Position numbers and translations under genes: made by a program. 64,000 nucleotides of DNA from an uncultured delta proteobacterium (GTDB lineage Bacteria > Desulfobacterota > Syntrophobacteria > BM002): assembly GCA_963712115.1 (NCBI GenBank), contig CAVQGX010000055.1, positions 1 to 64,000 on the forward strand, written 5' to 3'. Positions 4,805 through 40,864 of the stretch are shown here, piece after piece (the first letter of the stretch is position 1; each line of letters begins with the position of its first letter). Below the pieces are notes generated by a model. The model was not told the origin of the DNA. It ran no database searches and saw only the letters and a list, made by a program, of their open reading frames with translations.

Positions 4805-5215
4805 TCATATTTCCTTAAAGACCTTGGCCAGTGACTCGCCGGCCACGTGGAGCTTCCATTCGTTGAGATAGCCAAAGGGCGTCACTGTAACGGAATATCC
4901 TGCTCTCTCCAGTCGATCACGGGCGTCTTGAACCAATTCCTCGGCAAAATCAGCAGAGGCCTTGCTGTTTGAAAGATGATTAAAGGAATGTAAAATTACT
5001 TTTTTGGAGTCAAATTTTCCAGCGAGCCATTTGATGTTTTTTACAAGCTTGGTTATTACCTTTCCCCGTCTCTCAAGGTCATTAGTCTCAACGTGATAGA
5101 AAACTACCACAGCTTCTTGACAATTGGCCTCCAATTCCTGGTCGTCCACGTGTTCCAGAACCTTTTGGTAGGTTTTGAACCAGAAAGAGGGAGCGTAGAA
5201 AAGAAGGAGTTTCAT
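4805..5215 (-). CDS. Free-standing archaeal-type threonyl-tRNA synthetase editing domain protein
   Basis: MKLLLFYA start, ILHSFNHLSNSKA and TPFGY motifs typical of the archaeal ThrRS editing domain. Confidence 0.75.
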   Translation of the reverse strand: MKLLLFYAPSFWFKTYQKVLEHVDDQELEANCQEAVVVFYHVETNDLERRGKVITKLVKNIKWLAGKFDSKKVILHSFNHLSNSKASADFAEELVQDARDRLERAGYSVTVTPFGYLNEWKLHVAGESLAKVFKEI

Positions 5216-5508
5216 CCGCACAGCCCCTTGGAATAAACTAATCTAAAATCATACAACGGCTGTAAGGTGGTGGTCAACAAAGAGTGGATATTTCCGATTG
5301 CGGATTCCGGATTTCGAATTTGAGATTTAAGGTTTCAGTGTTCAGTATTTGTTTTTCCTGAAACCTGAAACCTGAGACCTAGAGCCCTAGCTTCGAATGA
5401 AGTCTTTTTCCCATTTATGGAATATATTACCCCTTTCAACCAGGCTTGTTTTTTTCTCCTCTCTACTTAAATGCTTGAAATATTGATAAATCGTCGTATC
5501 AATAATTC

Positions 5509-7135: not shown

Positions 7136-8233
7136 TTGGATAATCTCGTCGCCGTCGCAGACCAATTTAAACCGCAGGGCAAGGTCGTTGCCGTCGAGGA
7201 ATATGGAAATGGCAATGTCAATGACACCTTTCTGGTAACCCTGGATTCCAAAAAAGAGAAACACTTTATCCTTCAACGGATCAACGCCCAGGTGTTTCGC
7301 CAGCCGGAACTTGTCATGCTGAACATGCGTACCTTCAGCGAGCATGTTCGCCAGCGCCTCCAGCGCGCCCGCCTCAGTCCAGGCCGCCGATGGGAAGTGG
7401 TGCGGGTGCTTTCGGCAGAGGACGGTCAGGACCACTGGATTGACCCCGAAGGGTCATTCTGGCGCGGTATTAGCTTTATTGACGGATCGCAGTCCTTCGA
7501 AACCATCGAAGATATTGAGCACGCCCAAGAAGTGGGCCTTGCTCTCGGCATGTTCCACAACCTCCTCAGCGACCTGCCCAGCGAGAGACTGGCAGACACC
7601 CTGGAAGGGTTTCACATCACGCCCCGTTACCTTCACCATTACGATGAAGTCCTGGCACACAACCGCCCGAGGAAATCTCCGGAAGTGGATTATGGTTTGC
7701 AGTTCATTAAGGAGCGAAGGGGATGGGCAAACGTCCTCGAAGATGCCAAAGGGCAGGGCAGGTTACGTCTTCGACCCATTCACGGCGATCCAAAGGTCAA
7801 TAACGTAATGATTGACAACGCCACTGGTCAGGCAATCAGCATTGTTGACCTGGACACAGTCAAGCCCGGACTGGTTCATTACGATATCGGCGACTGCATA
7901 CGCTCGGGCTGCAATCCCCTGGGAGAAGAAACCGAGCAGTGGGAGATGGTTCGCTTCGATCCCGAACTCTGCCAGGCCATTCTGCAAGGCTATCTCTCAT
8001 TGGCAAGAAACTTCCTCACCCAGAACGACTATGAGTATCTGTACGACGCCATTCGTCTAATCTCTTTCGAGCTGGGACTGAGATTCTTTACCGATTATTT
8101 GGAAGGTAATGTTTACTTCAAGGCCAACCACCAGGAACACAATCTTGCCAGGGCACTCGTCCAATTCAAGCTCACCGAGAGCATCGAATCGCAGGAAACA
8201 GCCATCCGGTCCATCATCAGAGAGGTGAGATGA
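7136..8233 (+). CDS. APH-fold phosphotransferase (N-acetylhexosamine 1-kinase-like)
   Basis: GNGNVNDTF, ILQRIN, IHGDPKVNN, VDLDT, GLRFFTDYL. Confidence 0.8.
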   Translation: MDNLVAVADQFKPQGKVVAVEEYGNGNVNDTFLVTLDSKKEKHFILQRINAQVFRQPELVMLNMRTFSEHVRQRLQRARLSPGRRWEVVRVLSAEDGQDHWIDPEGSFWRGISFIDGSQSFETIEDIEHAQEVGLALGMFHNLLSDLPSERLADTLEGFHITPRYLHHYDEVLAHNRPRKSPEVDYGLQFIKERRGWANVLEDAKGQGRLRLRPIHGDPKVNNVMIDNATGQAISIVDLDTVKPGLVHYDIGDCIRSGCNPLGEETEQWEMVRFDPELCQAILQGYLSLARNFLTQNDYEYLYDAIRLISFELGLRFFTDYLEGNVYFKANHQEHNLARALVQFKLTESIESQETAIRSIIREVR

Positions 8234-8769
8234 ACGAATACAACTTTTCCCTTCAGCCATTTACCCCAGCACAACCACTGCTTTCTTTGAAGGTCAAGGG
8301 CAAGATCTTCCGGCGCTCCAACACACTTGCTCTACAATATGCCCTCCTCGGCCATCTGGGGGAGCTTGTTATTCCCACACCGGCAGACATACCAGCCCGG
8401 AAGAACGAACTTTGGAAAGAAACCTGCTTCGAGTTCTTTGTCGCAGTCAGGGATTCGCAACCGTATTGGGAATTCAATCTCTCTCCAGCCGGGCACTGGA
8501 ACGTCTATCGCTTTGCCGGTTATCGGCAAGGGATGGAGGAAGAAAAGGTTTTTACCTCAATGGACTTTAGCGTCCGGAGGCAACCGCAGTCTTTGCGTCT
8601 GGATCTAGAACTCAATTTGGATAAGATCGTTAAGGAAAAGCAACCACTCGAGGTTGCCCTCAGCGCAGTGATCGAACTCAAAGACGGCGAATTGACCTAC
8701 TGGGCATTGACCCATGGCGGACCGCAGGCCGACTTCCACCGTCGAGAAGGTTTCATCGTCAAATTGTAG
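8230..8769 (+). CDS. DOMON-like domain protein
   Basis: LWKETCFEFF, YWEFNLSPAGHWN, YWALTH...DFH; 4-nt overlap with the upstream kinase. Confidence 0.75.
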   Translation: MNEYNFSLQPFTPAQPLLSLKVKGKIFRRSNTLALQYALLGHLGELVIPTPADIPARKNELWKETCFEFFVAVRDSQPYWEFNLSPAGHWNVYRFAGYRQGMEEEKVFTSMDFSVRRQPQSLRLDLELNLDKIVKEKQPLEVALSAVIELKDGELTYWALTHGGPQADFHRREGFIVKL

Positions 8770-9060
8770 GACAGGCTAAGATTTGTTGGATTCTCTTTCA
8801 TATGAGGACAAACTCGGCGAAATATTATGAGATTCTTCGCGGAGAATAGGGTTGTCGGACAACCTCTTTTCCTCTATTATTTATTAATTCAGATATAGTC
8901 CTGCCCAGGACGCGACTCTATGGCAGACGAGTCGACTGCCATACTCCCCATAGGCGCCAAGCTGCACCGGCGCCCCGGTCACTCCAAGAAAGCCCAGGCG
9001 CAACACAGTTGAGTTTCGATTCCTTATATGTCGCAGTGAAGAATAAATAAGGAGGATAAG

Positions 9061-10366
9061 GTGATGACGAACCGCAAAGCATTCATTATTTTAGTTGGGC
9101 TGTTGCTGGCAGTACAGGTATTTTTTGTAAGCACGGTTGCGGCTCAGGAGGGAACGGTAGACTCCAAAGACGTTGAAAGACTGGAACGCCTCATCAAAGA
9201 ACAACAGCAGCAGTTGGAATCCTTGCAGCAACAAGTGAAGCAATTGAAGAAAACAGCTACAGATGCGCAAACCCAGGCCAAAGAAGCCAAGTCTGTGGCC
9301 GAAGAAGCGAAAACAACTGTGCAGGCGCCTGTTGAAAAGGTTGTTACCTCGGGTCAGGAGCGGGTTAAACTCGCCATCTCAGGGCAGGTCAACCGGGCGC
9401 TGAATATGGCCGATGACGGCAAAAACACCAAGGCCTACTACGTGGACAACGACGCCAGCAACAGTCGTATCCGCTTTATCGGCACGGCCAAGGCAACCGA
9501 CGATTTGACCCTCGGCTCGCTAATTGAAGTGGCAATTGCTCCGAATGAATCTGCAGACGTCAGCCAGGGCAACGAAGAAAGCGGCGACTTTTTCGACGAG
9601 CGCTGGGCGCAGGTGTCACTTGACAGCAAGCGCTTCGGCAAGCTTTCCCTCGGCAAGGGTGCCACCGCTTCGTATGGCAGCCCCTGGGTCGATCTGTCCC
9701 GAACCGACGTGGTGCAATACGCCAGCGTCGCGGACATTGCCGCGGGGCTCTTGTTCCGGCAAAAAGATGCTGATGACACCCTCACGGACGTCAGCGTCTC
9801 TGATGCGTTCAACAGCTTCAGCGGCTTGAGCCGGAAAAGCAGGGTGCGCTATGACACGCCCACATTATATGGTTTCCGCCTCGCCGGCTCGCTGATCAGC
9901 GACCAGCGCTACGATGGCACTTTGTGGTGGGGGGGACAAGGCTTTGGCTTTCAAGGCCGCCGGTGCTGTGGCTGTCGCTTTTCCCAATACGGACGACACC
10001 GACCATCAATACGACGGCTCCTTTTCACTATTGCACGAAGCCACCGGCTTGAATCTCACCCTTTCCGCCGGTTTGAAGGAGCGTGACAACCAGGGAGACG
10101 CCAACAACTTTTACGCCAAGATTGGCTGGCTGACGAGATTCTTTTCCTTGGGCGAGACCGCTTTTGGCGTCGACTACGACCGATCGGTTAATCTTCCCAC
10201 GGGCAGGGACGACGGGTATTCGGTCGGTGCGGCGGCGGTCCAGCAGTTCGAGGACTACGGCACTGAGCTTTACATACAGTATCGCCTTTACTCCCTCGAT
10301 CGGGATGTTGAGCCCAATGTCCAGGACATCAACGTGGGAACAATCGGGGCGAGGGTGAAGTTCTAA
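9061..10366 (+). CDS. Outer-membrane porin with N-terminal coiled coil; apparent +1 frameshift at ~9949-9951
   Basis: Signal peptide, Q-rich coiled coil, beta-barrel pattern (SRVRYDTP), C-terminal VKF. ORFs 9061-10086 and 9914-10366 join if one T is removed from TTT at 9949-9951. Confidence 0.75.
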
Positions 10367-10662
10367 TGGCTATCATTAGTACATCTAGAGGAAAAGTGTT
10401 GTGGATCGTGGCATTGTTGGTGGCGTTGCTGGTCCTTGCCGGCTGCGCCGGAATCAAGCCTTACGAGCCCCGGAACAACCGGGAAGAGGGACCAGAGAAG
10501 GGCCTGTTTACCGGATCAGAGGGCGAGTTCGTAATCTTGAGAAAGGCAGAGGAGCCACAGACGGGCAGCGAGGACAACAAAATCTCAGATAAAGCCTGTA
10601 GACGGCGAACAAGCGGAACCGGGCAGCGACGAAAGGGAAAAGACGGAAGAGACCAAGAGTGA
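10366..10662 (+). CDS. Small lipoprotein (C-terminus possibly frameshifted near 10591)
   Basis: Lipobox LAGC; TAATG coupling to the porin. Confidence 0.65.
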   Translation: MAIISTSRGKVLWIVALLVALLVLAGCAGIKPYEPRNNREEGPEKGLFTGSEGEFVILRKAEEPQTGSEDNKISDKACRRRTSGTGQRRKGKDGRDQE

Positions 10663-10961
10663 TTATCCCGGACATCCCGCCCATTCAGATCGCGAAGGAC
10701 TATCGAAGTGACCTATGCTTCATTAAACTTTATAAGCAAACTGCAGCGTCAGCGATTATCAGGGACGTTGATCGGTCATAAATTGTACCCGACAGCAATT
10801 TACGCCTTCGCATACCCTTCACCATTTCCTCTGGGTCCGATCTACCTCATCATGTTGTGTATGGGCAAAGGAGGTTCGGAAGTAAAAAGGCATGAGGTAG
10901 CACCGAGGCAACTGATGAATTCAACTCAAGAAATAGTTTAAGTGGATTTCTGCAGCGAAAA

Positions 10962-12287
10962 ATGGCATGTAGGATATTCCAACGAAGGAGTGACGGAGTG
11001 AATCGACCTGATCTGGATGATTCTGCTTCTTTTGTTTTTTCTCCCTGCCATCTGGCTTTCGGCCAGAGTATCATGGTCGGACCCGATGGAAAATTTGATA
11101 AGCAAGTCCTCAGCCTTCCCTACGCCTTCTACAATGAAAATTTTGGTTTTGCCGCTGCCTACGTGTACGCTGTGACCGGATATCCCCAGAAGCAGGCGGC
11201 ACTGATCTCCACTGCTATGGCCGGCAGCAAAGGGTCGGGAATGGGGTTCCTCATGGGCAGAGACCTGCAGATGCCATTCTTCGATCGACTGTTTCTGGAT
11301 GCGGTTTTCCAGGCCGGCTACTTCCAGGACAATGACATCTACGTGGACGGTAATCCTGATTTTCCCGATGAACGTGCCGGAAGCAACGACTCCGACAAAG
11401 ACGACTACGTTACAAGCGACGGCGGCTGGGACAACTTCTTCCGGCTCCGGTTCAAATATCTTCTCCCCATGGGCCACGGCCGCGACACCATTATCAATAC
11501 TCAGGTTATTGACCGGGGCATGCTCGTTCACGGGGCGACCGGCGGAGAGTCCTGGAACCCCTTTGAGAGCGGGCTAACCTACCTGGAGGTGAAGCCTTTC
11601 TACCGGCTGCAGCAAGTCGAGAGCGACGACGTGCGGGAGGATGTGAAGACCAACGGTCTCGAGGTTTCCCTGTTCCGCGATAACCGGGACTTTAGATTTA
11701 ACCCTTCGAGGGGAAGCGCCATTCGGCTCAAGTATAACCGGGATTTCGGCTGGTTCAACAGCTCGGAATCCTGGACTGCCCTCGATACCGAGATTGACAA
11801 GTACTTCTCACTGGGGGAGTCGGATTGGTTCCGCCAGCGTGTGCTCGCCTTTGATTTCTGGACATCGTATTCACCGACCTGGAACGAGAAAGACAACGGA
11901 GATATCGAACATCGTCCGCCGACCTTTGCTGGGGCCACTTTGGGTGGGCTCTTCCGTCTGCGGGGATACCCGTCACAGCGATTCAGCGACAAGGCGGCAA
12001 TTTACTACGGCGCGGAATTTCGGGCTATTCCACGGTGGAATCCCTTTGAAGGCTGGCCCTGGTTGCAGAAATATGTTGGGGTCCAGTGGTTGCAATTTGT
12101 CCCTTTCGTGGAGGTCGGGCGTGTGGCCCCCGAATGGGGCGTCAGTAGGCTCCATGAAGACATGAAGTGGGACGCGGGTTTAGGCCTGCGTTTGTGGGCT
12201 AAGGGAATCGTAGTCCGAATCGATTCGGCTGTCTCCGATGAGGGGTTCGGCGTTCAGATGATGGTCGCTCAACCGTTCCAATTCTAG
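10962..12287 (+). CDS. Omp85/BamA-TamA family outer-membrane barrel protein (5' end uncertain)
   Basis: LGGLFRLRGYPSQRF (VRGY-like motif), DNRDFRFNPSRG, terminal QF. A hydrophobic signal-like stretch (LIWMILLLLFFLP) lies in another frame at ~11008-11050. Confidence 0.75.
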   Translation: MACRIFQRRSDGVNRPDLDDSASFVFSPCHLAFGQSIMVGPDGKFDKQVLSLPYAFYNENFGFAAAYVYAVTGYPQKQAALISTAMAGSKGSGMGFLMGRDLQMPFFDRLFLDAVFQAGYFQDNDIYVDGNPDFPDERAGSNDSDKDDYVTSDGGWDNFFRLRFKYLLPMGHGRDTIINTQVIDRGMLVHGATGGESWNPFESGLTYLEVKPFYRLQQVESDDVREDVKTNGLEVSLFRDNRDFRFNPSRGSAIRLKYNRDFGWFNSSESWTALDTEIDKYFSLGESDWFRQRVLAFDFWTSYSPTWNEKDNGDIEHRPPTFAGATLGGLFRLRGYPSQRFSDKAAIYYGAEFRAIPRWNPFEGWPWLQKYVGVQWLQFVPFVEVGRVAPEWGVSRLHEDMKWDAGLGLRLWAKGIVVRIDSAVSDEGFGVQMMVAQPFQF

Positions 12288-14827: not shown

Positions 14828-15088
14828 CAGGTTGCTGACAAACTCACTATTTTGAGTTCTAGTGCCAAGTCCGTCATTCCGGAATCCGCCGGCGGCGGAT
14901 ATCCGTAATCCAGACGCCGTCTCCGCGAAGGCGGGGAACCAGATACCAAGTAACGTCATTGTAGTTGTCTGGATACCCCTTCGACTTCGCTCAGGGTGGT
15001 GAGCCTGTCGAACCACGGATCTCGTCCGCCTGAGGCGGACTCGTCCGGTATGACGTTTTATCCATTTCCGTAGTTTCTCAGTAGCCTG
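14828..15088. mobile_element. MITE-like element with IS-like terminal inverted repeats
   Basis: Left CAGGTTGCTGACAAAC vs reverse complement of the right end CAGGCTACTGAGAAAC (13/16 identical); internal GTCATTCC...GGTATGAC palindromes. A related left end at 13016 and an internal piece at ~17807-17848. Confidence 0.6.
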
Positions 15089-15127: not shown

Positions 15128-16177
15128 ATGATGAGACGATTACATCTTACATTTCTGGTGTTACTCTGTCTTGCCGCCAGTTATCTCGTGAGCTGTTCCA
15201 CTGCTCCAAGCCATCGGGCCTCCTTGCAGTTCAAGGAAGCCCCCTCGCCCAGTGTGAAAGGTCAGTTTCCCAACTGGCAATTGCCACCCCATGAGTTGGA
15301 GACCACTATATACAAGAGAGCGCTGGCAGGGAAGTTACACGGGGAGGAAGTGAAGAGGACGGCACATGGTACGACCGGCGCATTTTATCTCGTCACCGAG
15401 GATGAAGTAACTGGCAAGGACATAAAGTGGAAATTCAAGAAAAACGTCCCGGGCTGGGTCGACAGCTTCAACACCTCTCCCCGCAAAGAGCTTGCTGCGT
15501 AAGAGGTTCAGAAGTTTTTTCTGGATCCCGAGGACTACGTGGTGCCCACTGCTCTACCGATCTGCATACCCCGTGATAGGTATATGAAGAGGGCTGGTTA
15601 CGCTGCTGCAACCCCAGAGGGAACGGATTGCATTCTGGGCCTTGCTTCCATCTGGATGGTGGACGTCACCATTCCCGACACCTTGTACGATGAGTCGCGC
15701 TTTATGGAGGATCCCACCTACGCCTACTTTATGTCTAACTTTAATCTTCTCACCTACCTGATCCAACACCGCGATGGCCGGGTGGGACAATTCCTGGTTG
15801 CCAAGGACGACAAGCGGAGACAGGTATTCTCCATTGACAACGGTATTTCCTTTGGCTTTTGGCCCTACAATTTTTTCATAACTCAGTACGATGAAATTCA
15901 TCTGCCGGCGCTGCGCCAGGATTCCATCGACCGGCTGCGCAAGATAAAGCGGCAGGATCTGGATTTCCTGGCCGTCATAGCCCAGTTTGAATTAGATGAG
16001 GACCTCGTTTTAAAACATGTTCCGGTAGGGAAAAATTTAGACCCCGAAACAGGTGCGAAGTACAAAGATGGCACACTGCAATACGGTCTCTCCAACATCG
16101 GAGATCGACTGATCGTTTGGGATCGTATCCAGAATGTAATTGCCGAGGTGGACGCCGGCAACATCCAGGTTTTCTAA
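15128..16177 (+). CDS. Lipoprotein with atypical (PI3/PI4-kinase-like) kinase motifs; interrupted by in-frame TAA at 15500-15502
   Basis: Lipobox LVSC; KWKFK, RKELAA*EVQ...VVPT, HRDGRVGQFL, SIDNG. The two ORFs are in the same frame. Confidence 0.6.
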
Positions 16178-17510
16178 GCCGGAGATCGGAAATGAAACGG
16201 AGAGCCCCTTCAAAGCCATATTCGACATCAGGAAGTCCGAGCTGCCCCTCGCGCTTTTGATGTTCAGCTATTTCTTCCTGGTCATCACCAGTTTTTGGAT
16301 TCTCAAGCCCATTAAGAAGTCGCTTTTCATCGAGTTCTACGATAAAGGCGGCTTCGATCTCTTTGCCTGGCACATGTCCGGCCCCCAGGCGGAGCTGCTC
16401 GCCAAAGTGATGAACATGGTGGTGGCCTTTGCCGCCGTGGTTGTGTTTACCTGGCTGGCCCGTCGTTTCCGGCGGCAGCAGCTTACCTTCATTTTCACCA
16501 CCTTTTTCCTGGCCAGCTACGTTGCCTATAGCTTTGTAATAGAGAAACCCCAGAGTATTACGGTCTGGAGCTTCTATCTCTTCGGGGATCTTTTCTCTAC
16601 CCTGATGGTGGCAACCTTTTTCGCCTTTCTCAACGACAGCGTGACCCCTGACGCTGCCAAACGCCTCTACGGTCTGGTGGGGTTGGGAGGAGTCGTTGGC
16701 GGGGTCTTCGGTACCTCAACCGTGAGAGTGCTGATCGCGAGAATCAATACGGTGGGCTGGCTTTGGATCGCCTTTGGTCTGGGCCTGGTGATCCTCGCCG
16801 TGGCTTTTGCCGCTGGACGTATGGTAGATCGAAACCCGCCCCCTGAGCCCGAGCCCGCTCCAGCTGAGATGGAGGAGAAAGGGAAGGGCAATCCTGCCAT
16901 AGAGGGGGCACGGTTGGTATTCAGCTCACCCTATCTATTGTCCATTGTGGCGATTGTGGGTCTCTATGAAATAGTCTCCACGGTGATGGATTTTCAATTC
17001 ACCAGTACCATCGCTCATTACCTGGACGGTCCTGCCATCGGAGAGCAATTCTCCACAGTCTTTGCCATTACCAACGTCGTCTCTATGTTGGTGCAGCTCC
17101 TCCTCACCAGCTTTGTCATGTCCCGACTCGGCGTGGGGGTGGCGCTCTTGTTTCTGCCTATTGCTGTTCTCGCCGGATCAATGGGTTTTACGGTTCTTCC
17201 CATCCTTTGGGTGGGCAGCTCCCTGAACACGGTGGACAATGCCTTCAGCTACTCCATCAATCAGTCGGCCAAGGAGTCCCTGTACGTCCCAACCACCAAG
17301 GACGAAAAGTACAAAGCCAAGGCTTTCATTGACATGTTTGTGCAGCGCTTTGCCAAAGCGGTGGCAGTGGGAGTGAGCCTTGGGATCACAACCGTGTTTA
17401 CAGACTTTTCCAGCATCCGCTGGCTCTCGGGTTTCACCATTCCCATTATCATCGTCTGGATCTTCGCGGCGCGCTATGCAGGACGCAAGTTCAGGGAAAT
17501 GACAGAGTAA
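16140..17510 (+). CDS. NTT/TLC family (ADP/ATP translocase-like) MFS transporter
   Basis: ILKPIKKSLF, AKRLYGLVG, YSINQSAKESLYVP, KYKAKAFIDMFVQR; multiple TM segments. The true start may be the out-of-frame ATG at 16192 behind a GGAG. Confidence 0.85.
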   Translation: MPRWTPATSRFSKPEIGNETESPFKAIFDIRKSELPLALLMFSYFFLVITSFWILKPIKKSLFIEFYDKGGFDLFAWHMSGPQAELLAKVMNMVVAFAAVVVFTWLARRFRRQQLTFIFTTFFLASYVAYSFVIEKPQSITVWSFYLFGDLFSTLMVATFFAFLNDSVTPDAAKRLYGLVGLGGVVGGVFGTSTVRVLIARINTVGWLWIAFGLGLVILAVAFAAGRMVDRNPPPEPEPAPAEMEEKGKGNPAIEGARLVFSSPYLLSIVAIVGLYEIVSTVMDFQFTSTIAHYLDGPAIGEQFSTVFAITNVVSMLVQLLLTSFVMSRLGVGVALLFLPIAVLAGSMGFTVLPILWVGSSLNTVDNAFSYSINQSAKESLYVPTTKDEKYKAKAFIDMFVQRFAKAVAVGVSLGITTVFTDFSSIRWLSGFTIPIIIVWIFAARYAGRKFREMTE

Positions 17511-17928
17511 GGATTGCGGATCTCGGATTAAAATTTAAAATGGATTGGCAGGCTCTGATGAAAAATATATTTAAGTGAAGAGACAAAGGAGAGAGAGTAA
17601 TCTAATTAAGAGTGAAGATTTGTGATTGTGCGTCTCTGAGAAGAAATGCGCTATTGTATGCAGCTTACTGGTACAAGTTACGTACGCGTTTATATTATTG
17701 AGTAAAATATGAAAAAAGAGTTCTGTTACAGTGTATGAAACTAAGAACTTATGCATTTTAGACTAAGATTAGGAATTGGCTAGTTGTACATTTTATTATT
17801 ATCTTCGGATCTCGCCCGCCGAAGGCGGAGCTCGTCCGGAATGACGGGGTCGGCGAAATGTGCCATAGTTTCCAAGCCCAGAAGGGATTCTTGCGAAGCT
17901 TATTTAGCTGAGATAGGCTAGTATAAGA

Positions 17929-26135: not shown

Positions 26136-27533
26136 TTATTTGTACTTGTCAAAGACCTCGGCAGGCCTAGTGGTATTGCCTGTGGCATTGGGAAAGTCGG
26201 TAGCCACGTAAGCCTTCGTGTTGTGCTCGATCAGATCACGGGATTTTTCCATGAATCTGCTGAACCGTTTTTTGCACTCATAAAAACCATGCCACCAGGC
26301 ATAGTCCGGTGCCATCATGGCCGCGCCAAATCGAGCTCTACGGCCCTCGTGGTGCCACAGCTCGTAGTACTCCACTTCAAGTTCTTCATCGAAGAACTTG
26401 GTCTTGTCAAGGAGACCTTTCTCGTAAAGTTCATCGAGCATCTTCTTTGCTGGTTTGAAATAGACCTCGTTATACTCGACGTTAATCTTATCGTACTTGA
26501 CGAAATGGTCATCCACCCAGACCTTGCCGTGACACTGCTTGCAGACCTCTTTCATCTTCTCCCGTTCAACCTCATGGTTGACCTTGGCGGGGAAGGGCTT
26601 GAAGTCTTCCGGCCTAATCGACAATGGGGCTTGAGACTCCCAGGCCAGCCTCTCGGTCACATCGTGACTGGTGAGCACCGTTCCGGCACCAGACATGTGA
26701 CAGGCGGCGCAGGTCGGTCCTCGAAAGTCAACACCAGCAGACCAGGTTCCCGGTGCAGCATTCCAGTTATACTCATCACCGAAGGCCGTATAAATATCAC
26801 CATGTTTCGATTCCATGTAAATCTCGATCTGGGGATGATCCGGCCCCAGGTGACATTGACCACAGGCCTCCGGCTTCCTGGCTTCCATCACTGAAAACCG
26901 GTGCCGGGTATGGCAACTGGTGCAGCTCCCCAAGCTGCCATCCATATTTACCCGTCCTACACCCACATTGGGCCAGGTCTCGGGATCCAGCTTGCCGTCT
27001 TTCGTATGCTTGACCACTGTGCCATGGCAGTGGAAACAGCCAGTGGCACGCTCAAAATCACTGTTCATGCCCAATTTTAGCCAGGGATCAATCTGCCAAA
27101 TTATGTACTGAGTGTTGGCGTGCTTGCTCCTGGCATACTGCTTGGCCTCATCAGGGTGGCAACGGGAACAATCTTTAGGTGTGACCACCGCAGCCACCGG
27201 AACCCGGTAATCTTTACTGCCGTACTTCATATCACGCCGCTCGTACTGCTTGTAATGTTCCTTGCTCACATCTGGATCGAAAGACTCCGCTTTGTGGCAG
27301 TCGTAGCAAGTAACGTTGGCGCTGGCATGTCGGCTGTTGGCCCAATCACCAAAGATGCCGGGATGTTCGGCCTTGTGGCATTCGATGCACGCTACCGCCT
27401 CCTTGGGCATACTGCGCTCTAGCCTGAATTCCTTGACCTTAGGAACATTCTGGGCCTGGGCTACGACACTGCCCAAAACAAGAGGGCCCATTATCCCTGC
27501 AACCAAAGCTGAAGCAATCAGGTACCTTCTCAC
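26136..27533 (-). CDS. Octaheme cytochrome c, HAO family (probably reductive, epsilon-Hao-like)
   Basis: Signal peptide, 8 CxxCH, CHLGPDHPQIEIY, PDYAWWHG. Confidence 0.88.
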   Translation of the reverse strand: MRRYLIASALVAGIMGPLVLGSVVAQAQNVPKVKEFRLERSMPKEAVACIECHKAEHPGIFGDWANSRHASANVTCYDCHKAESFDPDVSKEHYKQYERRDMKYGSKDYRVPVAAVVTPKDCSRCHPDEAKQYARSKHANTQYIIWQIDPWLKLGMNSDFERATGCFHCHGTVVKHTKDGKLDPETWPNVGVGRVNMDGSLGSCTSCHTRHRFSVMEARKPEACGQCHLGPDHPQIEIYMESKHGDIYTAFGDEYNWNAAPGTWSAGVDFRGPTCAACHMSGAGTVLTSHDVTERLAWESQAPLSIRPEDFKPFPAKVNHEVEREKMKEVCKQCHGKVWVDDHFVKYDKINVEYNEVYFKPAKKMLDELYEKGLLDKTKFFDEELEVEYYELWHHEGRRARFGAAMMAPDYAWWHGFYECKKRFSRFMEKSRDLIEHNTKAYVATDFPNATGNTTRPAEVFDKYK

Positions 27534-27608
27534 TTCTTCACCCCCTTTCTAGCGTAACCTAGAGCATTAATGCGCACTCCAGGCAAATTCGGATATTTTA
27601 ACCACTGC

Positions 27609-28175
27609 TTACGAGCCTAAACCACGGTAAGTGTCTCCGTATTGTTTGTAATCGTAAAACTCTCTGGGGTTGTGAACCAGGTTCTTATGACAATCTACGC
27701 ATTTCTTCTCATAACCCGGCCTGGCATAGACCACGTCACGGTGAGCAAGCATAGCACCACGTTTGTTTGGAATGAAAAGGAGATTACGATGGCATTTCTG
27801 GCACTGGTCATTCCTAAAAGAGGCATAGGCCTTCTGCCGCTGCTCTGCGTGGTCATATTCGCTCTGGAAAAAATGGACGAGGACGTCCTTGGCACCGTGA
27901 AAGGTTTTGGCATAGAAAAAGTCAAAGGTGTCGTGCGGAGCCGGCAGATGGCAATCCATGCAGTCGGCCACAAATCCCTGTTCATTGTTCACATGAGTGG
28001 AGGTCTTCCAGGTGTTGTAGGCAAATTGAATCTCGTGGCAGGTGGCACAAAATTGGGGCGTGGTTGTGCGTACCATGGTGTAATAGGTGAGACTGAATAA
28101 TGGAAAAGCGATAATCATACCGATGAAGATGAACATGGTGGGCTTGATGAACTTTTTCATGGTTCCGTCCCTCAA
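27609..28175 (-). CDS. NapC/NirT family tetraheme quinol dehydrogenase
   Basis: N-terminal TM, 4 CxxCH (FCATCHE, CMDCHLP, CQKCH, CVDCH). Confidence 0.9.
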   Translation of the reverse strand: MRDGTMKKFIKPTMFIFIGMIIAFPLFSLTYYTMVRTTTPQFCATCHEIQFAYNTWKTSTHVNNEQGFVADCMDCHLPAPHDTFDFFYAKTFHGAKDVLVHFFQSEYDHAEQRQKAYASFRNDQCQKCHRNLLFIPNKRGAMLAHRDVVYARPGYEKKCVDCHKNLVHNPREFYDYKQYGDTYRGLGS

Positions 28176-28626
28176 TAGGATTTTAGGTTAGGTCCTTTGA
28201 GTTTTGTCTACCACCAATTAAGTTAAGCTCATAGATCGCGCCCTGTAAACTCGCGGCACATTTTTCAGAATAGTTACTGTATATAAGAGAGTAGTTGTTT
28301 ATGAATAGATATGGAATCGCTAGTATCTATTAACTCAAACCGAATGACGCGTAATTGTCAAGATGTCAGTGTGAAAAAAATTATCAAATTTTCCTTCGCA
28401 GCTTCACCATACCACCCGGCCGACGATTGCGGAACGCGGATTGCGGAATGCGGAATAAAAATTTACTCAAAAGCTCGTGAGAATCAGAGAACAAATGGCA
28501 AAATCCGAGATCCGAAATCGAAGCCGAGGCGTACCTGAATGGTACGTCGCAAGGGTCTACACCCGAGGAGGCACGGAAGGAGGGCCATATCCGTGGTCGC
28601 AGTAAGCGATTCGTGGAACATCCGGG

Positions 28627-29658
28627 CTATGTCCCCGACAGGTTCATTTTTTCCCGTAGCCGCTGGGAAAGCTTTATGGTTGTCTGAAAAGCCTTCTCCA
28701 CGGTTTTCTCGCCGTCAGGATTTACCAGACAGCAGGTGGCGGGGGAGAGCATACTCCGAGACAGAAGAAATTGACGATCAATCCCTTTATTCGCCAGGGT
28801 AGTCCAGATCTCCTCAAGCCGCTTCTCCAGGCTGTCGAGATTCTCTTGCTCAAATGGTTCAAAATTGCTGGGGATTATTCCCCACACCAGCCTTCCCCCT
28901 CGATCCAGAAACTTCCGGATCGATCCTGCGTATTGGGCGAAGACCTCACCATTGCTGTAGACATCCAAAGAAAGAACGTCCATATCCAGCCCGAGGAGAA
29001 AGTCCCAATCAGGATTACCGCAAAGGTGCACTCCCCGGGGTCTTTCTATCATGGCGAAGAAGTTCTCCATGTCACCCCGTGCCGCCAGGTCCCCGTAACC
29101 TGCCATAGCACTGAAAAGGAATTGAAGACCAGGCTCGTCGACAAACATGAAGGCGTTGGGATTTAATTGCTTTAGGCGCTGCAATTGCACATTCACCCTT
29201 TTAGCCATAAACTCCATGAGAAACGGCCGGACGGTATCATTAAAAAGGATAGGCCGATCGTCCTGGTCCACCACGTTAAAACCGAAACTGATGGGCCCCT
29301 CGATTTGCCCCCTTATCGCCGGCCGATGGGAGAAATCCATCTGCAAGAACCTGTGGTACACCACGGAGTACTGCTCACTGATATCAAAATATTCCGGCTT
29401 GTCAAAATGAGCCATAGTATCTTCGAATTCGGCGATGAATTTTTCCATGGAAAAGCGCAAAGTACGTTTTTCCATATCCAGAAGGATTCCGGGAAAGTGC
29501 TCCGAGGCCTGAACATACATGTCCTCGTAATAGTTGACATGGGGTAGTTGCGGCCAGAAGGGTACATCCAAGGAAAGAGCCACCTCCAGGGCTCGATCTA
29601 CATCCCTGTGGGGCATTACGGCCATGGCCGTAGTTAGCAGGTTTCCTGGGATAGGCAT
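28627..29658 (-). CDS. Core-MetE-like (folate-independent methionine synthase type) protein
   Basis: FWPQLP, DEP, HLC zinc motif, WGIIP, SPATCC; single-barrel size of 343 aa. Confidence 0.65.
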   Translation of the reverse strand: MPIPGNLLTTAMAVMPHRDVDRALEVALSLDVPFWPQLPHVNYYEDMYVQASEHFPGILLDMEKRTLRFSMEKFIAEFEDTMAHFDKPEYFDISEQYSVVYHRFLQMDFSHRPAIRGQIEGPISFGFNVVDQDDRPILFNDTVRPFLMEFMAKRVNVQLQRLKQLNPNAFMFVDEPGLQFLFSAMAGYGDLAARGDMENFFAMIERPRGVHLCGNPDWDFLLGLDMDVLSLDVYSNGEVFAQYAGSIRKFLDRGGRLVWGIIPSNFEPFEQENLDSLEKRLEEIWTTLANKGIDRQFLLSRSMLSPATCCLVNPDGEKTVEKAFQTTIKLSQRLREKMNLSGT

Positions 29659-29852
29659 AGTTCATCCTCTATCAGAATTCATATCTCAAATTCAGGAGCC
29701 AGGAGGCAGGAGTCAATGGTAAACGGTAAATCGTTATAAAGCATCCAATCCCTTAATTCCTCAATCCCACATCCGCAATCATCTACTCTATGCTTTTTCG
29801 CTATGCGCTATGCGCTTTGCGCTCTGCGACCCTCAATCCGAAATCCGAAATT

Positions 29853-30296
29853 TCACTTCTTCTTTTCTCTCTCCTCCAGTTCGGCCAAACGCTTCTTGAG
29901 TTCCTTCTGTTTCAGAAAGCGTTCAGTGACATCGCGGATAATGGCGGCTGTGCCCAGGGGTTCACCTGAGTCATTGGTCACCAAGACTATGGTAAATTCA
30001 ATGGAAATGCGGTTGTCGTCCTTGGTAATTGCGGGTACCGCCAGGGTTTCCTTACCGTATTTTGTCTTCGCGGTTGCCATCACCTTGCGGTAGCCCTCCC
30101 AGTGCCTCTTCCGTAACTTCTCCGGCACAATGAGATCGAGGCTCTGACCTAAGGCCTCTTCCGCCGGGTAACCAAAGATAGCCTCAGCACCATCGTTCCA
30201 GAGTCTAATGATGCCCTCTTCATCAGCGAATATTATCGCATCTGCTGCCTTGTCGACTATCTGTCGGCTCAACCATTCTTGGGTATATGCAGTCAT
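29853..30296 (-). CDS. Stand-alone PAS domain protein
   Basis: DAIIFADEEGIIRLWNDGAEAIFGY, AIIRDVTER. Confidence 0.85.
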   Translation of the reverse strand: MTAYTQEWLSRQIVDKAADAIIFADEEGIIRLWNDGAEAIFGYPAEEALGQSLDLIVPEKLRKRHWEGYRKVMATAKTKYGKETLAVPAITKDDNRISIEFTIVLVTNDSGEPLGTAAIIRDVTERFLKQKELKKRLAELEEREKKK

Positions 30297-30309
30297 TGGG
30301 GTATTCCTC

Positions 30310-31614
30310 TCAGGCAACAGCCTCGGCCGCACTTTTAGGTGCATAGCGGTTCAAAATGGCAAAGAGTGCTATTGATAGCAGGGAAAGACCCAGGAATACC
30401 GCAAAGCCCTGCGAATAGCCTTCTACGCCAGACACTTTGACAAATAAACCCATTACAGGCGGTATGACAAAACCACCAAAGGCCCCCAGGCCTCCCACAA
30501 TCCCTGCAGACCCGCCAACCGTCTCGGGTGTGTACTTTGGTACCAACTTGAACACGCCGGCATTGGCAAACCCCATGCCAAGCGCAAGGAGCATCTCACC
30601 TGTAACTGCAAGAGCTAGGGACCCCGAGGCCAACATCATGGTGATTGCTCCACCAGTAACAACTACAAAGGAGAAGAACACCGTCTTCTCCCCACCAATC
30701 CGGTCTGCAGTGAAGCCGCCAAAGACCCTGAGTATGGAGGCAGATAAAGAATAGAGAGCGGTAAGTGAACCGGCCAGAACCAGGCTGGTGCCGAAATACT
30801 CCCGCCAATAAGTGGGGAACCAGACAGTGAGGGCGATAAATCCACCGAATGTTACAAAATAGAAGGAAGTCAATATCCAGGTTCGCCAACTGGAGCCGGC
30901 CTTTTTGAGAGAGTCGACGACTTTTCCCGATGGCATCAATTCCTCGCCACAGGCAATGAACAGAGCATCTTCGTCAATCTCGATTCCCATCTCTTTGTAT
31001 TGAAAATAGGGCGCATCTTTCATGTACAGCAAGAAAACAACAAGAAGACAGAGGAGCATACCGAGCCAGAGAACATAAGAAATGGCAAATCCCAGAGAAA
31101 CCACCAGAAAGGGCAGGGCCATAGCAAACATTCCCGGGGCCATGTTCCCCAACCCGGCATAGATGGCGAGGGCGGTGCCCTGCTTTTTCTGTGGGTACCA
31201 GTAGGATACCGTGGGAATGCCCACAGAAAAGACGGCAATACCACAGCCGCAAAGGATTCCCGCCATGAGGAACAGAGGGTAGTGAGATGGCTGGGGTGGG
31301 GAAAAAAGGCTGAACAACACCGTAATAGCTGTAATACCCGCCACGGCAAGGCCCAGAAGGATCAAAATGGGTTTCTTTCCCCCCATGCGATCTACCATGG
31401 CACCAAAGGGTATCCGTAACAACGAGCCGGAGAGCGCCGGGCTTGCCGCCAGTAGACCCATCAGCAAAGGACTCAGGGCCATAGTCTGTTTCAGCTTGGT
31501 GACGATGGGGCCGAAGGCAGATACGCCGGCAAAACCAGCAAAGAATGCTAAAGTAGTCCAAGTCAAAGCTGCACCTCGACTGGACTTAGCATAACAGACA
31601 GCTCCTTCATTCAT
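30310..31614 (-). CDS. narK: NarK-type nitrate/nitrite MFS transporter
   Basis: GSLLRIPFG, YAGLGN, YFVTFGGF, GIVGGLGAFGGF; downstream of narI. Confidence 0.85.
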   Translation of the reverse strand: MNEGAVCYAKSSRGAALTWTTLAFFAGFAGVSAFGPIVTKLKQTMALSPLLMGLLAASPALSGSLLRIPFGAMVDRMGGKKPILILLGLAVAGITAITVLFSLFSPPQPSHYPLFLMAGILCGCGIAVFSVGIPTVSYWYPQKKQGTALAIYAGLGNMAPGMFAMALPFLVVSLGFAISYVLWLGMLLCLLVVFLLYMKDAPYFQYKEMGIEIDEDALFIACGEELMPSGKVVDSLKKAGSSWRTWILTSFYFVTFGGFIALTVWFPTYWREYFGTSLVLAGSLTALYSLSASILRVFGGFTADRIGGEKTVFFSFVVVTGGAITMMLASGSLALAVTGEMLLALGMGFANAGVFKLVPKYTPETVGGSAGIVGGLGAFGGFVIPPVMGLFVKVSGVEGYSQGFAVFLGLSLLSIALFAILNRYAPKSAAEAVA

Positions 31615-31819
31615 AACCATCACCTCCTTCCCATAAGATATGTCCATCGGTTTTGGAGTACTGGAGTTTTGGAGTATTGGAGTGTTGGAAAAAGCTAAAA
31701 CCCCAAGATTCAATTCTAAAAAGTTTTTGCATTACTCCATTACTCCACCACTCCATTACTCCAGCTGACTCGTTTGCGAAAGCGGCTCTTCTGGGCCGAA
31801 TTCTTTACTTCTTTCCATG

Positions 31820-32503
31820 TCAAACATTTACTTCTCTGCGGCGAAATACGATCCATCTGCGGAAAAGATAAGTGAGCGGCACACTCCAAATGTGGACCAA
31901 GCGGCTGAAGGGCCAAAATCCTATTAGGGTCAGCACTGCGAGAATGTGAATCTTGAATCGTAAAGGCACTTCTAGCATCAGATTCGGATCTGGAGTCAGG
32001 GTGACGATTCCGCGGAGCCATGGGGCAACAGTGGCAAGAATGTCAAAGTGTTCGTACAATCCACCGACAACATTGGTAAATCCTGTGGCGACCACAAATA
32101 AAAGTAAACCCAGGGTGACAAAATCGTTTAGAGTTGTGGTAGCAAGTATTCGCTCTTTGGTGATTCGGCGATAGATCAACAGAGTGAGACCCAAAAGAGC
32201 CGCTGCTCCAACAAGAACCCCGCTATAGATAGCAAACACTGTGTGGGTCTGGCTATCGATACCCACCACATCCAAGTACCTCTGGGGAATGAGAAGCCCA
32301 ACCCCGTGCCCAAGCAGGGTGAAAATAATACCCCAGTGAAAAATTGTAACCGCGAACTTCAACCCCTTTTTTTCGAGAAGCTCGCTCGACCTCGTATTCC
32401 AGCCGTAGGGATCACTGATGTAACGGTATAGATGGCCAACCACAGAGGTAGAGAGCGCCAAGTAGGGGAAAACCAGAAATGCTAGCGTGTTCAAGGTGTT
32501 CAT
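31820..32503 (-). CDS. narI: Respiratory nitrate reductase gamma subunit
   Basis: FPYLA, WNTRSSELLE, FHWGI...GH, WPFSRLVH. Confidence 0.95.
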   Translation of the reverse strand: MNTLNTLAFLVFPYLALSTSVVGHLYRYISDPYGWNTRSSELLEKKGLKFAVTIFHWGIIFTLLGHGVGLLIPQRYLDVVGIDSQTHTVFAIYSGVLVGAAALLGLTLLIYRRITKERILATTTLNDFVTLGLLLFVVATGFTNVVGGLYEHFDILATVAPWLRGIVTLTPDPNLMLEVPLRFKIHILAVLTLIGFWPFSRLVHIWSVPLTYLFRRWIVFRRREVNV

Positions 32504-32507
32504 TTTC

Positions 32508-33038: not shown

Positions 33039-33198
33039 AACCACCACTAACTCCTCCTGCCACACAAGCAATAGCTGGGCTTAACATTGGATCTTTCGGT
33101 TGGCACTGCCCACCCAAATCTCAGATCACACATCCATCGACTACCCGCGTTTCGGAATTATCTACAAGTTCCCAGTTCTTTTCCTCGGTGCTTAGTGC

Positions 33199-38356: not shown

Positions 38357-38595
38357 GGGTTTCCTCCATGTATGAGAATATTGATGAAGTCTTGAGACGT
38401 TTAGTAGATACTAGTTTTCAGTGGTTCAACTCTTTGAGTCTGGCTTGCATGCCTAGCAAATAGAAGGGGTTTATTTTGCTGTTACTTTGTCTCCGTTTTT
38501 CGATTGGTCATAGTGTGCTTTTGGAAAAGACCCTTTACTAATGAGTTAGAAGCAAATGGGCTATGCTGGCTAGCGGGGTAGGTTTTGTAAAGGGC

Positions 38596-40768: not shown

Positions 40769-40864
40769 CCTCCTTTTCTAAAGCTGAACTAATTTCACCC
40801 AACAGTTTTTTTTCTATTTTAGGTTTATTGATTGTAACCGTAATAAATCACATCGTCACCGGCA

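What the first reader, a model, noticed from the sequence alone, without database searches (positions are those of the whole stretch)
15128..17510. Exported kinase-like lipoprotein paired with an ATP/ADP translocase-family transporter
Seen in sequence: a lipobox protein (LVSC) with ordered kinase-like motifs (beta3 Lys in KWKFK, helix-C Glu in RKELAA, catalytic-loop-like HRDGRVGQFL, metal-binding SIDNG), immediately followed by an NTT/TLC transporter. Established: the periplasm normally lacks ATP, and characterised NTTs mostly serve energy parasites and plastids. Inference: in an apparently free-living anaerobe the NTT may export ATP to power extracytoplasmic phosphorylation. The nearby porin, Omp85-like barrel and SYLF protein could be substrates or partners.
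Basis: partly seen in the sequence, partly recalled or inferred. Interest (0 to 1): 0.72.

Follow-up and report, generated by a model that had tools for sequence, protein, structure and literature searches.

The report
Broken exported kinase beside nucleotide carrier
A sediment-type bacterium carries a damaged copy of a widespread, undescribed gene pair, a kinase-like enzyme anchored outside the cell membrane next to an ATP/ADP-carrier-type transporter, which hints that some bacteria feed ATP into the periplasm.

Summary
Window 15128-16177 encodes a roughly 350-aa lipoprotein whose intact homologue folds with high confidence (pLDDT 94.8) into a Fam20 / type II PI4-kinase-like kinase. The Lys, Glu, HxD and DNG catalytic residues are conserved. 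The next gene, 16140-17510, is a TLC/NTT-family transporter.

The family is large (598 clusters at 50% identity) and carries no annotation. Members have N-terminal signal peptides and a co-varying Cys pair. A TLC transporter lies in the fetched flank of 28 of 57 loci, from several phyla. One protein fuses TLC to the kinase. Exported phosphoesterases also recur: PtpB-type Y_phosphatase3 lipoproteins as neighbours, and Metallophos domains as fusions.

ATP export into the periplasm remains an inference. The proposed porin, Omp85 and SYLF partners are not conserved neighbours.

This window's copy looks defective:
- an in-frame TAA replaces a near-invariant Tyr;
- a +1/+2 indel pair scrambles 8 residues;
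- the transporter has lost one base after its ancestral ATG;
- the phosphatase gene found in 13 of 17 same-genus genomes was not found here.

I could not tell real decay from assembly error. This scan has noted the same module in at least eight other genomes. My literature searches found no published description.

The parts
15128..15502 (+). N-terminal fragment of the kinase-like lipoprotein gene. It holds the signal peptide with lipobox LVSC, the Gly-rich loop, the beta3 Lys (KWKFK) and the helix-C Glu (RKELAA). It ends at the in-frame TAA.
   Evidence: hmmsearch 158.9 bits with the family profile
15500..15502 (+). In-frame TAA in place of a near-invariant Tyr (Y128 of P0002; Y in 67 of 84, aromatic or His in most of the rest).
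   Evidence: 7 of 7 relatives have TAT/TAC. This is the only one of 10 same-genus matches with a stop.
15503..16177 (+). Remainder of the kinase-like gene, in the same frame: C-lobe with catalytic loop HRDGRVGQ and metal-binding SIDNG.
   Evidence: 428.4 bits with the family profile
16092..16111 (+). A +1 and a +2 insertion relative to 7 relatives. They compensate each other but replace the conserved K-SEID-x stretch with NIGDRLI.
16140..17510 (+). TLC/NTT-family transporter ORF, open from TTG 16140. The body is 96-97% identical to that of the nearest relative.
16192..16200 (+). ATG AAA CGG, the start used by relatives. One G of their GGG run is missing here, so this ATG is out of frame with the transporter body.
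   Evidence: Relatives' contigs show a G put in at 16198.

Best explanation
The two genes are a damaged copy of a conserved extracytoplasmic phosphorylation module.

Gene 1 encodes a lipoprotein exported by the Sec/Lgt/LspA route and anchored on the periplasmic side. Its domain is a Fam20 / type II PI4-kinase-like kinase with a complete catalytic set: beta3 Lys, helix-C Glu, the catalytic Asp of HxD, an Asn or Gln, and the metal-binding Asp of DNG.

Gene 2 encodes a 12-helix TLC/NTT-family carrier. NTTs are counter-exchangers. In an ATP-making cell the carrier would most likely send cytoplasmic ATP out and take ADP back, feeding the kinase. This parallels how an ATP/ADP exchanger feeds Fam20 kinases in the eukaryotic secretory pathway.

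In relatives an exported phosphoesterase completes the module, presumably reversing the mark. It is either a PtpB/IphP-type Y_phosphatase3 lipoprotein or a Metallophos domain. The substrate (envelope protein, glycan or lipid head group) is unknown.

In this genome the module is probably out of service. The kinase has a nonsense codon and a scrambled segment. The transporter has lost the frame of its start codon. The phosphatase gene was not found.

Shown here: the fold, the conserved catalytic residues, the export signals, the gene linkage, the fusions and the lesions in the sequence as given.

Inferred: kinase activity, ATP as the transported substrate, the direction of transport, the role of the phosphatase, and that the lesions are real.
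For: Fold:
- AF2 model of P0002 (85% identical to the window's C-terminal part): pLDDT 94.8, pTM 0.90.
- VIA: hydra Fam20 Z 16.7 (256 aligned, rmsd 3.5), Fam20C Z 16.0, PI4KII-alpha Z 15.2, CtkA 11.3, CotH 10.8, Vps34 about 10.
- Foldseek: PI4KII-alpha E 6.2e-8.
- The family profile aligns its HRD..N...DNG stretch to the DRH..N...DFG of Vps34, E 0.01.

Catalytic residues: all five present together in 77 of 84.

Export:
- Hydrophobic N-terminus in 77 of 84; lipobox-like motif in 49 of 84.
- Cys149/Cys171: both present in 77, both absent in 5, one present in 2.
- Fusions to a beta-lactamase-family domain and to Metallophos sit behind signal peptides.
- In the TLC-kinase fusion P0226, an extra hydrophobic segment (488-506) after the last carrier helix would place the kinase outside.

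Linkage:
- TLC in the flank of 28 of 57 loci; within 300 nt in 19 of 57; in 18 of 34 loci with at least 5 kb on both sides. Record titles for the linked loci name Syntrophobacteria, Myxococcota, Spirochaetaceae, Methyloprofundus, Binatia, Polyangiaceae and Oligoflexia.
- 5 of 5 genomes whose kinase locus lacks a TLC encode PF03219 elsewhere, against 0 of 14 control genomes.

Phyletic pattern: within the window's genus, kinase in 9 of 17, TLC in 14 of 17, phosphatase in 13 of 17. Outside the genus, 0 of 14 for each.

Phosphoesterase partner:
- Y_phosphatase3 in 9 of 57 loci, 7 of those 9 with a lipobox.
- It is homologous to M. tuberculosis PtpB, E 9e-18.
- Kinase-Metallophos fusions: P0201, P0241, P0389, P0390.

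Transporter: homologous to the solved plastid ATP/ADP carrier AtNTT1, E 7.6e-16.

Lesions: and (the only stop among 10 same-genus matches).
Against: - No assay and no residue-level test of the transporter's substrate. It scores 82 bits against TIGR00769, whose cut-off is 387, so it is a distant member. Characterised NTTs also carry NAD, SAM and other nucleotides (recalled).
- About half of the family's loci (29 of 57) have no TLC in the fetched flank.
- The outer membrane is leaky to small solutes, so a periplasmic ATP pool would be costly to keep (general knowledge).
- The window and 11 of 84 homologues have Gln instead of the Mg-binding Asn.
- The kinase halves hit no Pfam or NCBIfam model.
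- Two of the 9 Y_phosphatase3 neighbours (L028, L040) show no signal peptide.
- Whether the lesions are real is unsettled. No public run held the window's own allele (share at most 0.25). The genome is a 70-contig assembly with 5.99% contamination. This locus lies at contig ends or gaps in 5 same-genus assemblies. The transporter frame stays open from an upstream TTG.
Confidence: 0.5

Rival explanations
1. The linkage is real, but the carrier does not deliver ATP. It moves the kinase's substrate or product, or another nucleotide-like cofactor such as NAD, SAM, a nucleotide sugar or a phosphorylated metabolite. The exported kinase-fold enzyme then takes its phosphoryl or nucleotidyl group from another source, or performs other chemistry such as AMPylation.
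For: The transporter is a distant TLC member: 82 bits against a 387-bit cut-off for TIGR00769, and only E 7.6e-16 to AtNTT1. Major et al. 2017 (PMC5381601, passages read) state that the functions of NTT homologues in free-living bacteria are unknown. Characterised NTTs have varied substrates (recalled).
Against: The complete ATP-type catalytic set is conserved in 77 of 84, which is what an ATP-using kinase needs. The recurrent pairing with phosphoesterases fits a phosphorylation cycle. No other donor-supplying gene recurs among the 79 immediate neighbours scanned.
Confidence: 0.25
2. The window's copy is actually intact. The TAA, the indels and the lost G would then be consensus errors of a metagenome assembly from mixed strains, so the organism has a working kinase-transporter pair that simply lacks the phosphatase nearby.
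For: The genome is a 70-contig assembly with 5.99% contamination. Many related contigs at 85-99% identity co-occur in sediment runs. The locus sits at contig ends or N gaps in 5 same-genus assemblies. The lost transporter base lies in a G run, as does a frameshift in the nearby porin-like gene. Identity of the kinase gene to two groups of relatives is mosaic along its length.
Against: Long genes elsewhere in the window are uninterrupted, at 1245, 1030, 1009, 965 and 819 aa, so the general error rate is low. Four lesions fall within about 700 bases of one module. The phosphatase was not found anywhere in a 94.4% complete genome.
Confidence: 0.35
3. The lipoprotein is a pseudokinase or a binding module, for instance a nucleotide sensor or scaffold in the envelope, and does not catalyse anything.
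For: The kinase halves hit no Pfam or NCBIfam model. Asn is replaced by Gln in 11 of 84, including the window. Fam20A, one of the structural matches at Z 15.6, is a pseudokinase (its status is recalled).
Against: The catalytic Asp is invariant (84 of 84). Lys, Glu and the DNG Asp are kept in 78 to 83 of 84. Pseudokinases usually lose such residues.
Confidence: 0.1

Closest known systems
Fam20 secretory-pathway kinases (Fam20C Golgi casein kinase, Fam20B xylosylkinase), supplied with lumenal ATP by an ER/Golgi ATP/ADP exchanger
   Same: Best structural match: Z 16.0-16.7 over 254-265 residues. Both act outside the cytosol. The proposed logic is also the same: a kinase in an ATP-poor compartment paired with a nucleotide antiporter. 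The eukaryotic supply route is recalled, not tested here.
   Different: Only 13-14% identity, and no hit to Pfam Fam20C. This one is a bacterial lipoprotein. The carrier belongs to the TLC/NTT family, not the SLC35 family. The substrate is unknown.
Type II phosphatidylinositol 4-kinases (PI4KII-alpha and -beta)
   Same: Top Foldseek hit, E 6.2e-8, and VIA Z 14.7-15.2. Both are membrane-anchored through a lipid. The catalytic loop aligns with the PI3K/PI4K DRHxxN...DFG motif.
   Different: The window's protein is below the Pfam PF00454 threshold; one relative reaches 19.8 bits against a 27.1 cut-off. It is exported rather than cytosolic, and phosphoinositide substrates are not expected in these bacteria.
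Bacterial atypical kinases CotH (spore coat) and CtkA (Helicobacter pylori)
   Same: Same kinase superfold, Z 10.8 and 11.3. They are bacterial kinases that act outside the cytoplasm (recalled).
   Different: Clearly weaker matches than Fam20 and PI4KII. Neither has a lipoprotein anchor or a linked nucleotide carrier.
NTT/TLC nucleotide transporters (plastid AtNTT1, Chlamydia Npt1, Rickettsia Tlc1) and the uncharacterised NTT homologues of free-living bacteria (Major, Embley and Williams 2017, PMC5381601)
   Same: Pfam TLC 79.7 bits. Homologous to solved AtNTT1 at E 7.6e-16, including the C-terminal K-E..Y.P...D.K.K.KA.ID stretch. NTT-HEAT and cNMP-binding genes lie beside several related loci, as that paper describes.
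   Different: Far below the TIGR00769 cut-off. The organism is free-living with a 4.9 Mb genome. The proposed direction is export. The paper's text never mentions 'periplasm' or 'export' (0 occurrences each), and the passages shown link no kinase to these transporters.
PtpB/IphP-type phosphatases (Pfam Y_phosphatase3; M. tuberculosis PtpB)
   Same: The third gene of the module in relatives scores 225 bits against PF13350. It matches PtpB 1ywf at E 9e-18 and 8dhi at E 4.8e-32. 7 of 9 carry a lipobox.
   Different: Not present in this window or found in its genome. Its substrate is unknown.

Membership tests
Protein-kinase-like fold, Fam20/PI4KII branch | Bilobal kinase fold that superposes on solved Fam20 or PI4KII structures over most of the domain | tested here: met
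   Model pLDDT 94.8. Z 16.7 with 256 aligned (Fam20); Z 15.2 with 245 aligned (PI4KII-alpha). Foldseek E 6.2e-8. The test was made on intact homologue P0002, not on the broken window copy.
Protein-kinase-like fold, Fam20/PI4KII branch | Catalytic set: beta3 Lys, helix-C Glu, catalytic Asp, Asn, metal-binding Asp | tested here: met
   K105 82/84, E124 78/84, D219 84/84, N224 72/84 (Q in 11), D240 83/84; all five together in 77/84. In the window all are encoded, with Q at position 224, but they are split by the TAA.
Pfam PI3_PI4_kinase (PF00454) and Fam20C (PF06702) | Score above the family's gathering cut-off | tested here: not met
   Neither window half hits any Pfam family at E 0.01. Relative P0241 reaches 19.8 bits against a 27.1 cut-off for PF00454. 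The Atlas lists these families only on 11-12% of members of more distant clusters.
Bacterial lipoprotein | Signal peptide ending in a lipobox [LVI][ASTVI][GAS]C | tested here: met
   MMRR + hydrophobic core + LVSC. Lipobox-like motif in 49/84 homologues; hydrophobic N-terminus in 77/84 by my own simple pattern and hydropathy test, not a trained predictor. Lipid modification itself cannot be tested here.
TLC/NTT nucleotide transporters (Pfam PF03219) | Score above the Pfam gathering cut-off and homology to characterised NTTs | tested here: met
   79.7 bits against a 21 cut-off. AtNTT1 9j3j E 7.6e-16. 10 hydrophobic segments by a crude hydropathy scan.
NTP/NDP exchange transporter (NCBIfam TIGR00769) | Score above the curated cut-off (387.2 bits) | tested here: not met
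   82.3 bits.
TLC/NTT nucleotide transporters | ATP/ADP counter-exchange; conserved substrate-binding residues | not testable with these tools
   This needs a transport assay. The paper on the solved NTT structures was not in the library, so no residue list could be checked.
Three-gene module: kinase, TLC carrier, exported phosphoesterase | An exported phosphoesterase gene or domain beside the pair | tested here: not met
   None in the window. None found in the 94.4% complete genome. It is present in 13/17 same-genus genomes.

The most novel reading that the evidence does not exclude
Diverse free-living bacteria run reversible, ATP-driven phosphorylation in the periplasm. A dedicated NTT-type antiporter exports ATP and retrieves ADP. 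A lipid-anchored Fam20/PI4KII-like kinase uses that ATP on envelope proteins, glycans or lipids, and an exported PtpB-type or metallo-phosphoesterase erases the mark. This would be a bacterial counterpart of the eukaryotic secretory-pathway kinase system, and it would overturn the textbook view that the periplasm has no ATP-dependent chemistry.
Probability: 0.4. Interest if true: 0.9.

Novelty: new variant of a known kind. Interest (0 to 1): 0.68.

Why it matters
The periplasm is taught as a compartment without ATP. Known periplasmic processes borrow energy across the membrane or use other donors.

A conserved pairing of an exported, catalytically complete kinase with an ATP/ADP-carrier homologue and an exported phosphatase would point to a regulated phosphorylation system outside the inner membrane. 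It would also offer a function for the NTT homologues of free-living bacteria, which Major et al. 2017 (PMC5381601) left unexplained.

The idea can be tested directly with intact orthologues, using a transport assay, a kinase assay and localisation. This window's own copy adds one point: within a genus where most genomes carry the module, one genome holds a version that looks disabled. That suggests the module is dispensable.

Tried and rejected
1. Checking the TAA and the lost G in public reads. No run held more than 0.25 of the stretch's sampled words. The four runs laid gave only relatives' contigs. At 15499, all contigs in X4 and X11 differ from the window. So there is no verdict on whether the lesions are real. 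The RNA-library contigs of X15 cover parts of the stretch, but this does not show transcription in this organism.

2. 'Truncated modules' in G007 and G016 (a TLC fragment plus the phosphatase, no kinase). These looked like independent decay. The truncations abut 100-N scaffold spacers, so I rejected that reading. G010, G019 and G020 likewise have the TLC at a contig end.

3. Porin, Omp85 and SYLF as conserved partners. The window's Omp85 and porin halves hit 0 of 57 loci. SYLF hits only L004 (82% identity) and weakly L011. SpoIIE hits only L005. Of the 105 ORFs I listed as immediate neighbours, I scanned 79; the other 26 were left out, some of them (for example the Y_phosphatase3 ORFs of L001 and L003-L007, and L025:9064-11982) already scanned or identified. 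None of the 79 gave an Omp85 hit at E 1e-6, and many gave no hit at all.

4. Residue-level test of the transporter's substrate. The structure paper for 9j3j and 9j3n was not found, so this was not done.

5. Chimera test. Sliding identity of the kinase gene to 7 relatives is mosaic but shows no sharp break. Inconclusive.

6. Remnants of the phosphatase gene downstream (17511-17928). tblastn found nothing below E 1 anywhere in the window.

7. Metallophos genes near the 57 loci, searched with a two-sequence profile: 0 hits. That profile is weak, so this is no evidence of absence.

8. Not used: complex prediction (no claim of binding is made) and the second structure job.

9. Literature searches for a published description (also 18 and 52) found none. 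Subscription journals are not covered.
Full report
WHAT IS IN THE SEQUENCE

Window 15128-16177 (+) is one reading frame of 350 codons, broken by TAA at 15500-15502.

The N-terminus reads MMRRLHLTFLVLLCLAASYLVSC. That is a positive n-region, a hydrophobic core and the lipobox L-V-S-C.

KWKFK and RKELAA lie before the stop. HRDGRVGQFL and SIDNG lie after it.

The next ORF, 16140-17510, scores 79.7 bits against Pfam TLC (cut-off 21) and 51.7 bits against MFS_1. Against NCBIfam TIGR00769 it reaches only 82 bits, with a cut-off of 387.

Neither half of the kinase-like gene hits any Pfam or NCBIfam model.

THE FAMILY

The C-terminal part found 397 proteins at E 0.001 or better among 707 candidates. 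Nearly all are 347-353 aa, and those with a name are called 'hypothetical protein', from Syntrophobacterales or Syntrophobacteria assemblies.

A profile search of the 50%-identity library found 598 clusters at E 0.001 or better, 224 of them at 1e-30 or better.

In an 84-sequence alignment the counts are as follows:

| Position | Kept in |
|---|---|
| K105 | 82 of 84 |
| E124 | 78 of 84 |
| H217 | 76 of 84 |
| D219 | 84 of 84 |
| 224 | N in 72, Q in 11 (Q in the window) |
| D240 | 83 of 84 |
| N241 | 80 of 84 |
| All five catalytic positions together | 77 of 84 |

Two cysteines, C149 and C171, are both present in 77 sequences, both absent in 5, and singly present in 2. That is the pattern of a disulfide. 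The bond itself is inferred, because I could not measure distances in the model.

By my simple tests, a hydrophobic N-terminus is present in 77 of 84 and a lipobox-like motif in 49 of 84.

THE FOLD

AlphaFold2 on the alignment, with intact homologue P0002 as the target, gave pLDDT 94.8 and pTM 0.90.

- Foldseek against the PDB puts PI4KII-alpha first (4hne, E 6.2e-8), followed by Fam20C.
- VIA-align gives hydra Fam20 Z 16.7 (256 aligned, rmsd 3.5), Fam20C Z 16.0, PI4KII-alpha Z 15.2, CtkA 11.3, actin-fragmin kinase 11.1, CotH 10.8, and Vps34 and PI4KIII-beta about 10.
- By sequence, the family profile aligns its catalytic stretch with Vps34 at E 0.01. HRD..N falls on DRH..N, and DNG falls on DFG.
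- The language-model atlas finds only unnamed clusters nearby. Fam20C or PI3_PI4_kinase labels appear on 11-12% of members of more distant clusters.

This is a new family on the Fam20/PI4KII branch, below the thresholds of the existing Pfam models.

LINKAGE WITH THE TRANSPORTER

A scan of one genome per species found 57 loci encoding a relative. I searched them with a profile built from the locus transporters. The results are:

- A TLC-like ORF of 100 bits or more lies in the fetched flank of 28 of 57 loci.
- It lies within 300 nt of the kinase gene in 19 of 57.
- It is present in 18 of the 34 loci that have at least 5 kb on both sides.

Record titles of the linked loci name Syntrophobacteria, Myxococcota, Spirochaetaceae, Methyloprofundus, Binatia, Polyangiaceae and Oligoflexia.

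In 5 of 5 genomes whose kinase locus has no TLC nearby, PF03219 matches above cut-off lie elsewhere in the genome. None of 14 control genomes has one.

P0226 (804 aa) is a TLC-kinase fusion. A further hydrophobic segment (488-506, preceded by RR) follows its last carrier helix. That would place the kinase domain outside, whether it is a thirteenth helix or the fossil of a signal peptide. This is a single protein, so a gene-calling artefact is not excluded.

THE THIRD PARTNER

In L001, L003-L007, L016, L028 and L040 (9 of 57 loci) a Y_phosphatase3 gene lies in the cluster (225 bits against PF13350 for L001).

Seven of these nine begin with a lipobox such as LLGCA. L028 and L040 do not.

The L006 protein matches 8dhi (E 4.8e-32) and M. 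tuberculosis PtpB (E 9e-18).

Other relatives fuse a Metallophos domain to the kinase behind a signal peptide: P0201, P0241, P0389 and P0390. In L014 a Metallophos domain with its own lipobox follows the TLC in the same open frame. P0147 fuses a beta-lactamase-family domain in front of the kinase.

NTT-HEAT and cNMP-binding genes also lie near several loci. Major et al. 2017 described that arrangement for NTT homologues of free-living bacteria (PMC5381601, passages read).

WHAT IS NOT A PARTNER

The window's Omp85-family gene and its porin-like gene have no counterpart in any of the 57 loci. The SYLF gene recurs only in L004 (82% identity) and weakly in L011. The SpoIIE gene recurs only in L005.

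Of the 105 ORFs I listed as immediate neighbours, I scanned 79 against Pfam; the other 26 were left out, some of them already scanned or identified. The 79 are heterogeneous and include no Omp85 at E 1e-6. Earlier notes of this scan report an Omp85 barrel in other versions of the module. I did not see it in this subfamily.

THIS COPY LOOKS DISABLED

1. The TAA replaces a Tyr. Seven of 7 aligned relatives have TAT or TAC there.
2. A +1 and a +2 insertion at about 16092-16111 replace K-SEID-x with NIGDRLI.
3. Relatives start the transporter with ATG AAA CGG GAG. The window has ATG AAA CGG AGA, one G short, so that ATG runs into a stop. Only an upstream TTG (16140) keeps the body in frame.
4. No phosphatase gene follows. 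A copper ATPase on the other strand begins about 420 bases downstream. None was found in the whole genome, which is 4.9 Mb in 70 contigs, 94.4% complete with 5.99% contamination.

Across the window's relatives the three genes are distributed like this:

| Gene | Same genus | Outside the genus |
|---|---|---|
| Kinase | 9 of 17, all without stops | 0 of 14 |
| TLC carrier | 14 of 17 | 0 of 14 |
| Phosphatase | 13 of 17 | 0 of 14 |

G000 is the only one of the 10 kinase matches with a stop. Five of the 'kinase-less' genomes have the TLC at a contig end or beside a 100-N spacer, so their kinase may simply be unassembled. Two phosphatase matches (G011, G019) contain one stop each, which I did not examine.

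ARE THE LESIONS REAL?

For real lesions: other long genes in the window are uninterrupted, at 1245, 1030, 1009, 965 and 819 aa, while four lesions fall within about 700 bases.

For an artefact: this is a metagenome assembly. The locus is hard to assemble in relatives. Two of the indels, here and in the porin-like gene, sit in G runs. No public run held the window's own allele.

I put real decay at about 0.6.

MECHANISM

The best-supported reading has three parts: an exported kinase, a carrier that supplies it with nucleotide, and, in intact versions, an exported phosphoesterase that reverses the mark.

The direction of transport (ATP out, ADP in) follows from the counter-exchange mechanism of characterised NTTs and from the ATP gradient of a free-living cell. 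That is established knowledge applied by inference, not something tested here.

The residue after the lipidated Cys is Ser. By the E. coli sorting rule (recalled) that would send the protein to the outer membrane, but the rule may not hold in this phylum.

The substrate class stays open. The nearest folds include protein kinases, a sugar kinase and lipid kinases. PtpB-type phosphatases are reported to act on both proteins and phosphoinositides (recalled).

NOVELTY

My searches and the passages read in PMC5381601 found no description of an exported kinase linked to NTT genes. Subscription journals are not covered.

This scan itself has noted the same kind of module in at least eight other genomes. 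Those are unchecked notes, and I did not use them as evidence.

Noticed in passing
window 9061-10366 (+), shift near 9929-9936: A porin-like outer-membrane gene is split into two overlapping frames (9061-10086 and 9914-10366). The shift coincides with a run of seven G. It could be an assembly error or a slipped-strand (phase-variable) tract.
   Followed up: partly
window 15016-15056 and 17806-17846: A roughly 40-base element holding a GC-rich hairpin (core CGGATCTCG.CCGCC..AGGCGGA) flanks the kinase-transporter pair as a direct repeat, 88% identical over 24 nt. Seven matches with up to 8 mismatches occur in the genome. Read depth and loose ends pile up at 15016-15055 in metagenome contigs.
   Followed up: partly
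G007, G010, G016, G019, G020 (same genus); loci L064, L065: In five same-genus assemblies the module lies at a contig end or beside a 100-N spacer, so this region seems hard to assemble. The 'single-contig' genomes G007 and G016 are concatenated scaffolds.
   Followed up: yes
L015:9426-10313 and L015:11967-13346: In the Methyloprofundus locus one transposase gene (DDE_Tnp_ISAZ013) lies between the kinase gene (8001-9062) and the TLC gene (10594-11877), and a second (DDE_Tnp_1_4) lies just downstream of the TLC gene.
   Followed up: no
L004:11582-12964, and cluster members in L006 and L007: A fourth gene follows the phosphatase in three close relatives. It matches DUF2252 and the APH phosphotransferase family, so it may be a second kinase-like protein in the cluster.
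   Followed up: no
L025:9064-11982, L034:6464-8371, L035:9018-10643, L036:1275-2900: In one group of TLC-less loci the kinase-like gene sits next to a trimethylamine-methyltransferase (MTTB) family gene. This may be plain synteny among close relatives.
   Followed up: no
window 4808-5242 (-): A stand-alone 145-aa protein matches the 'archaea-specific' editing domain of threonyl-tRNA synthetase (PF08915, E 1.2e-42) in a bacterial genome.
   Followed up: no
window 26139-43167: A respiratory cluster: NarGHJI-type nitrate reductase (31823-38410), an MFS transporter, NapC/NirT and multihaem cytochromes, and two Prismane/hybrid-cluster family genes. This points to nitrate respiration in a lineage whose relatives are titled Syntrophobacteria.
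   Followed up: no
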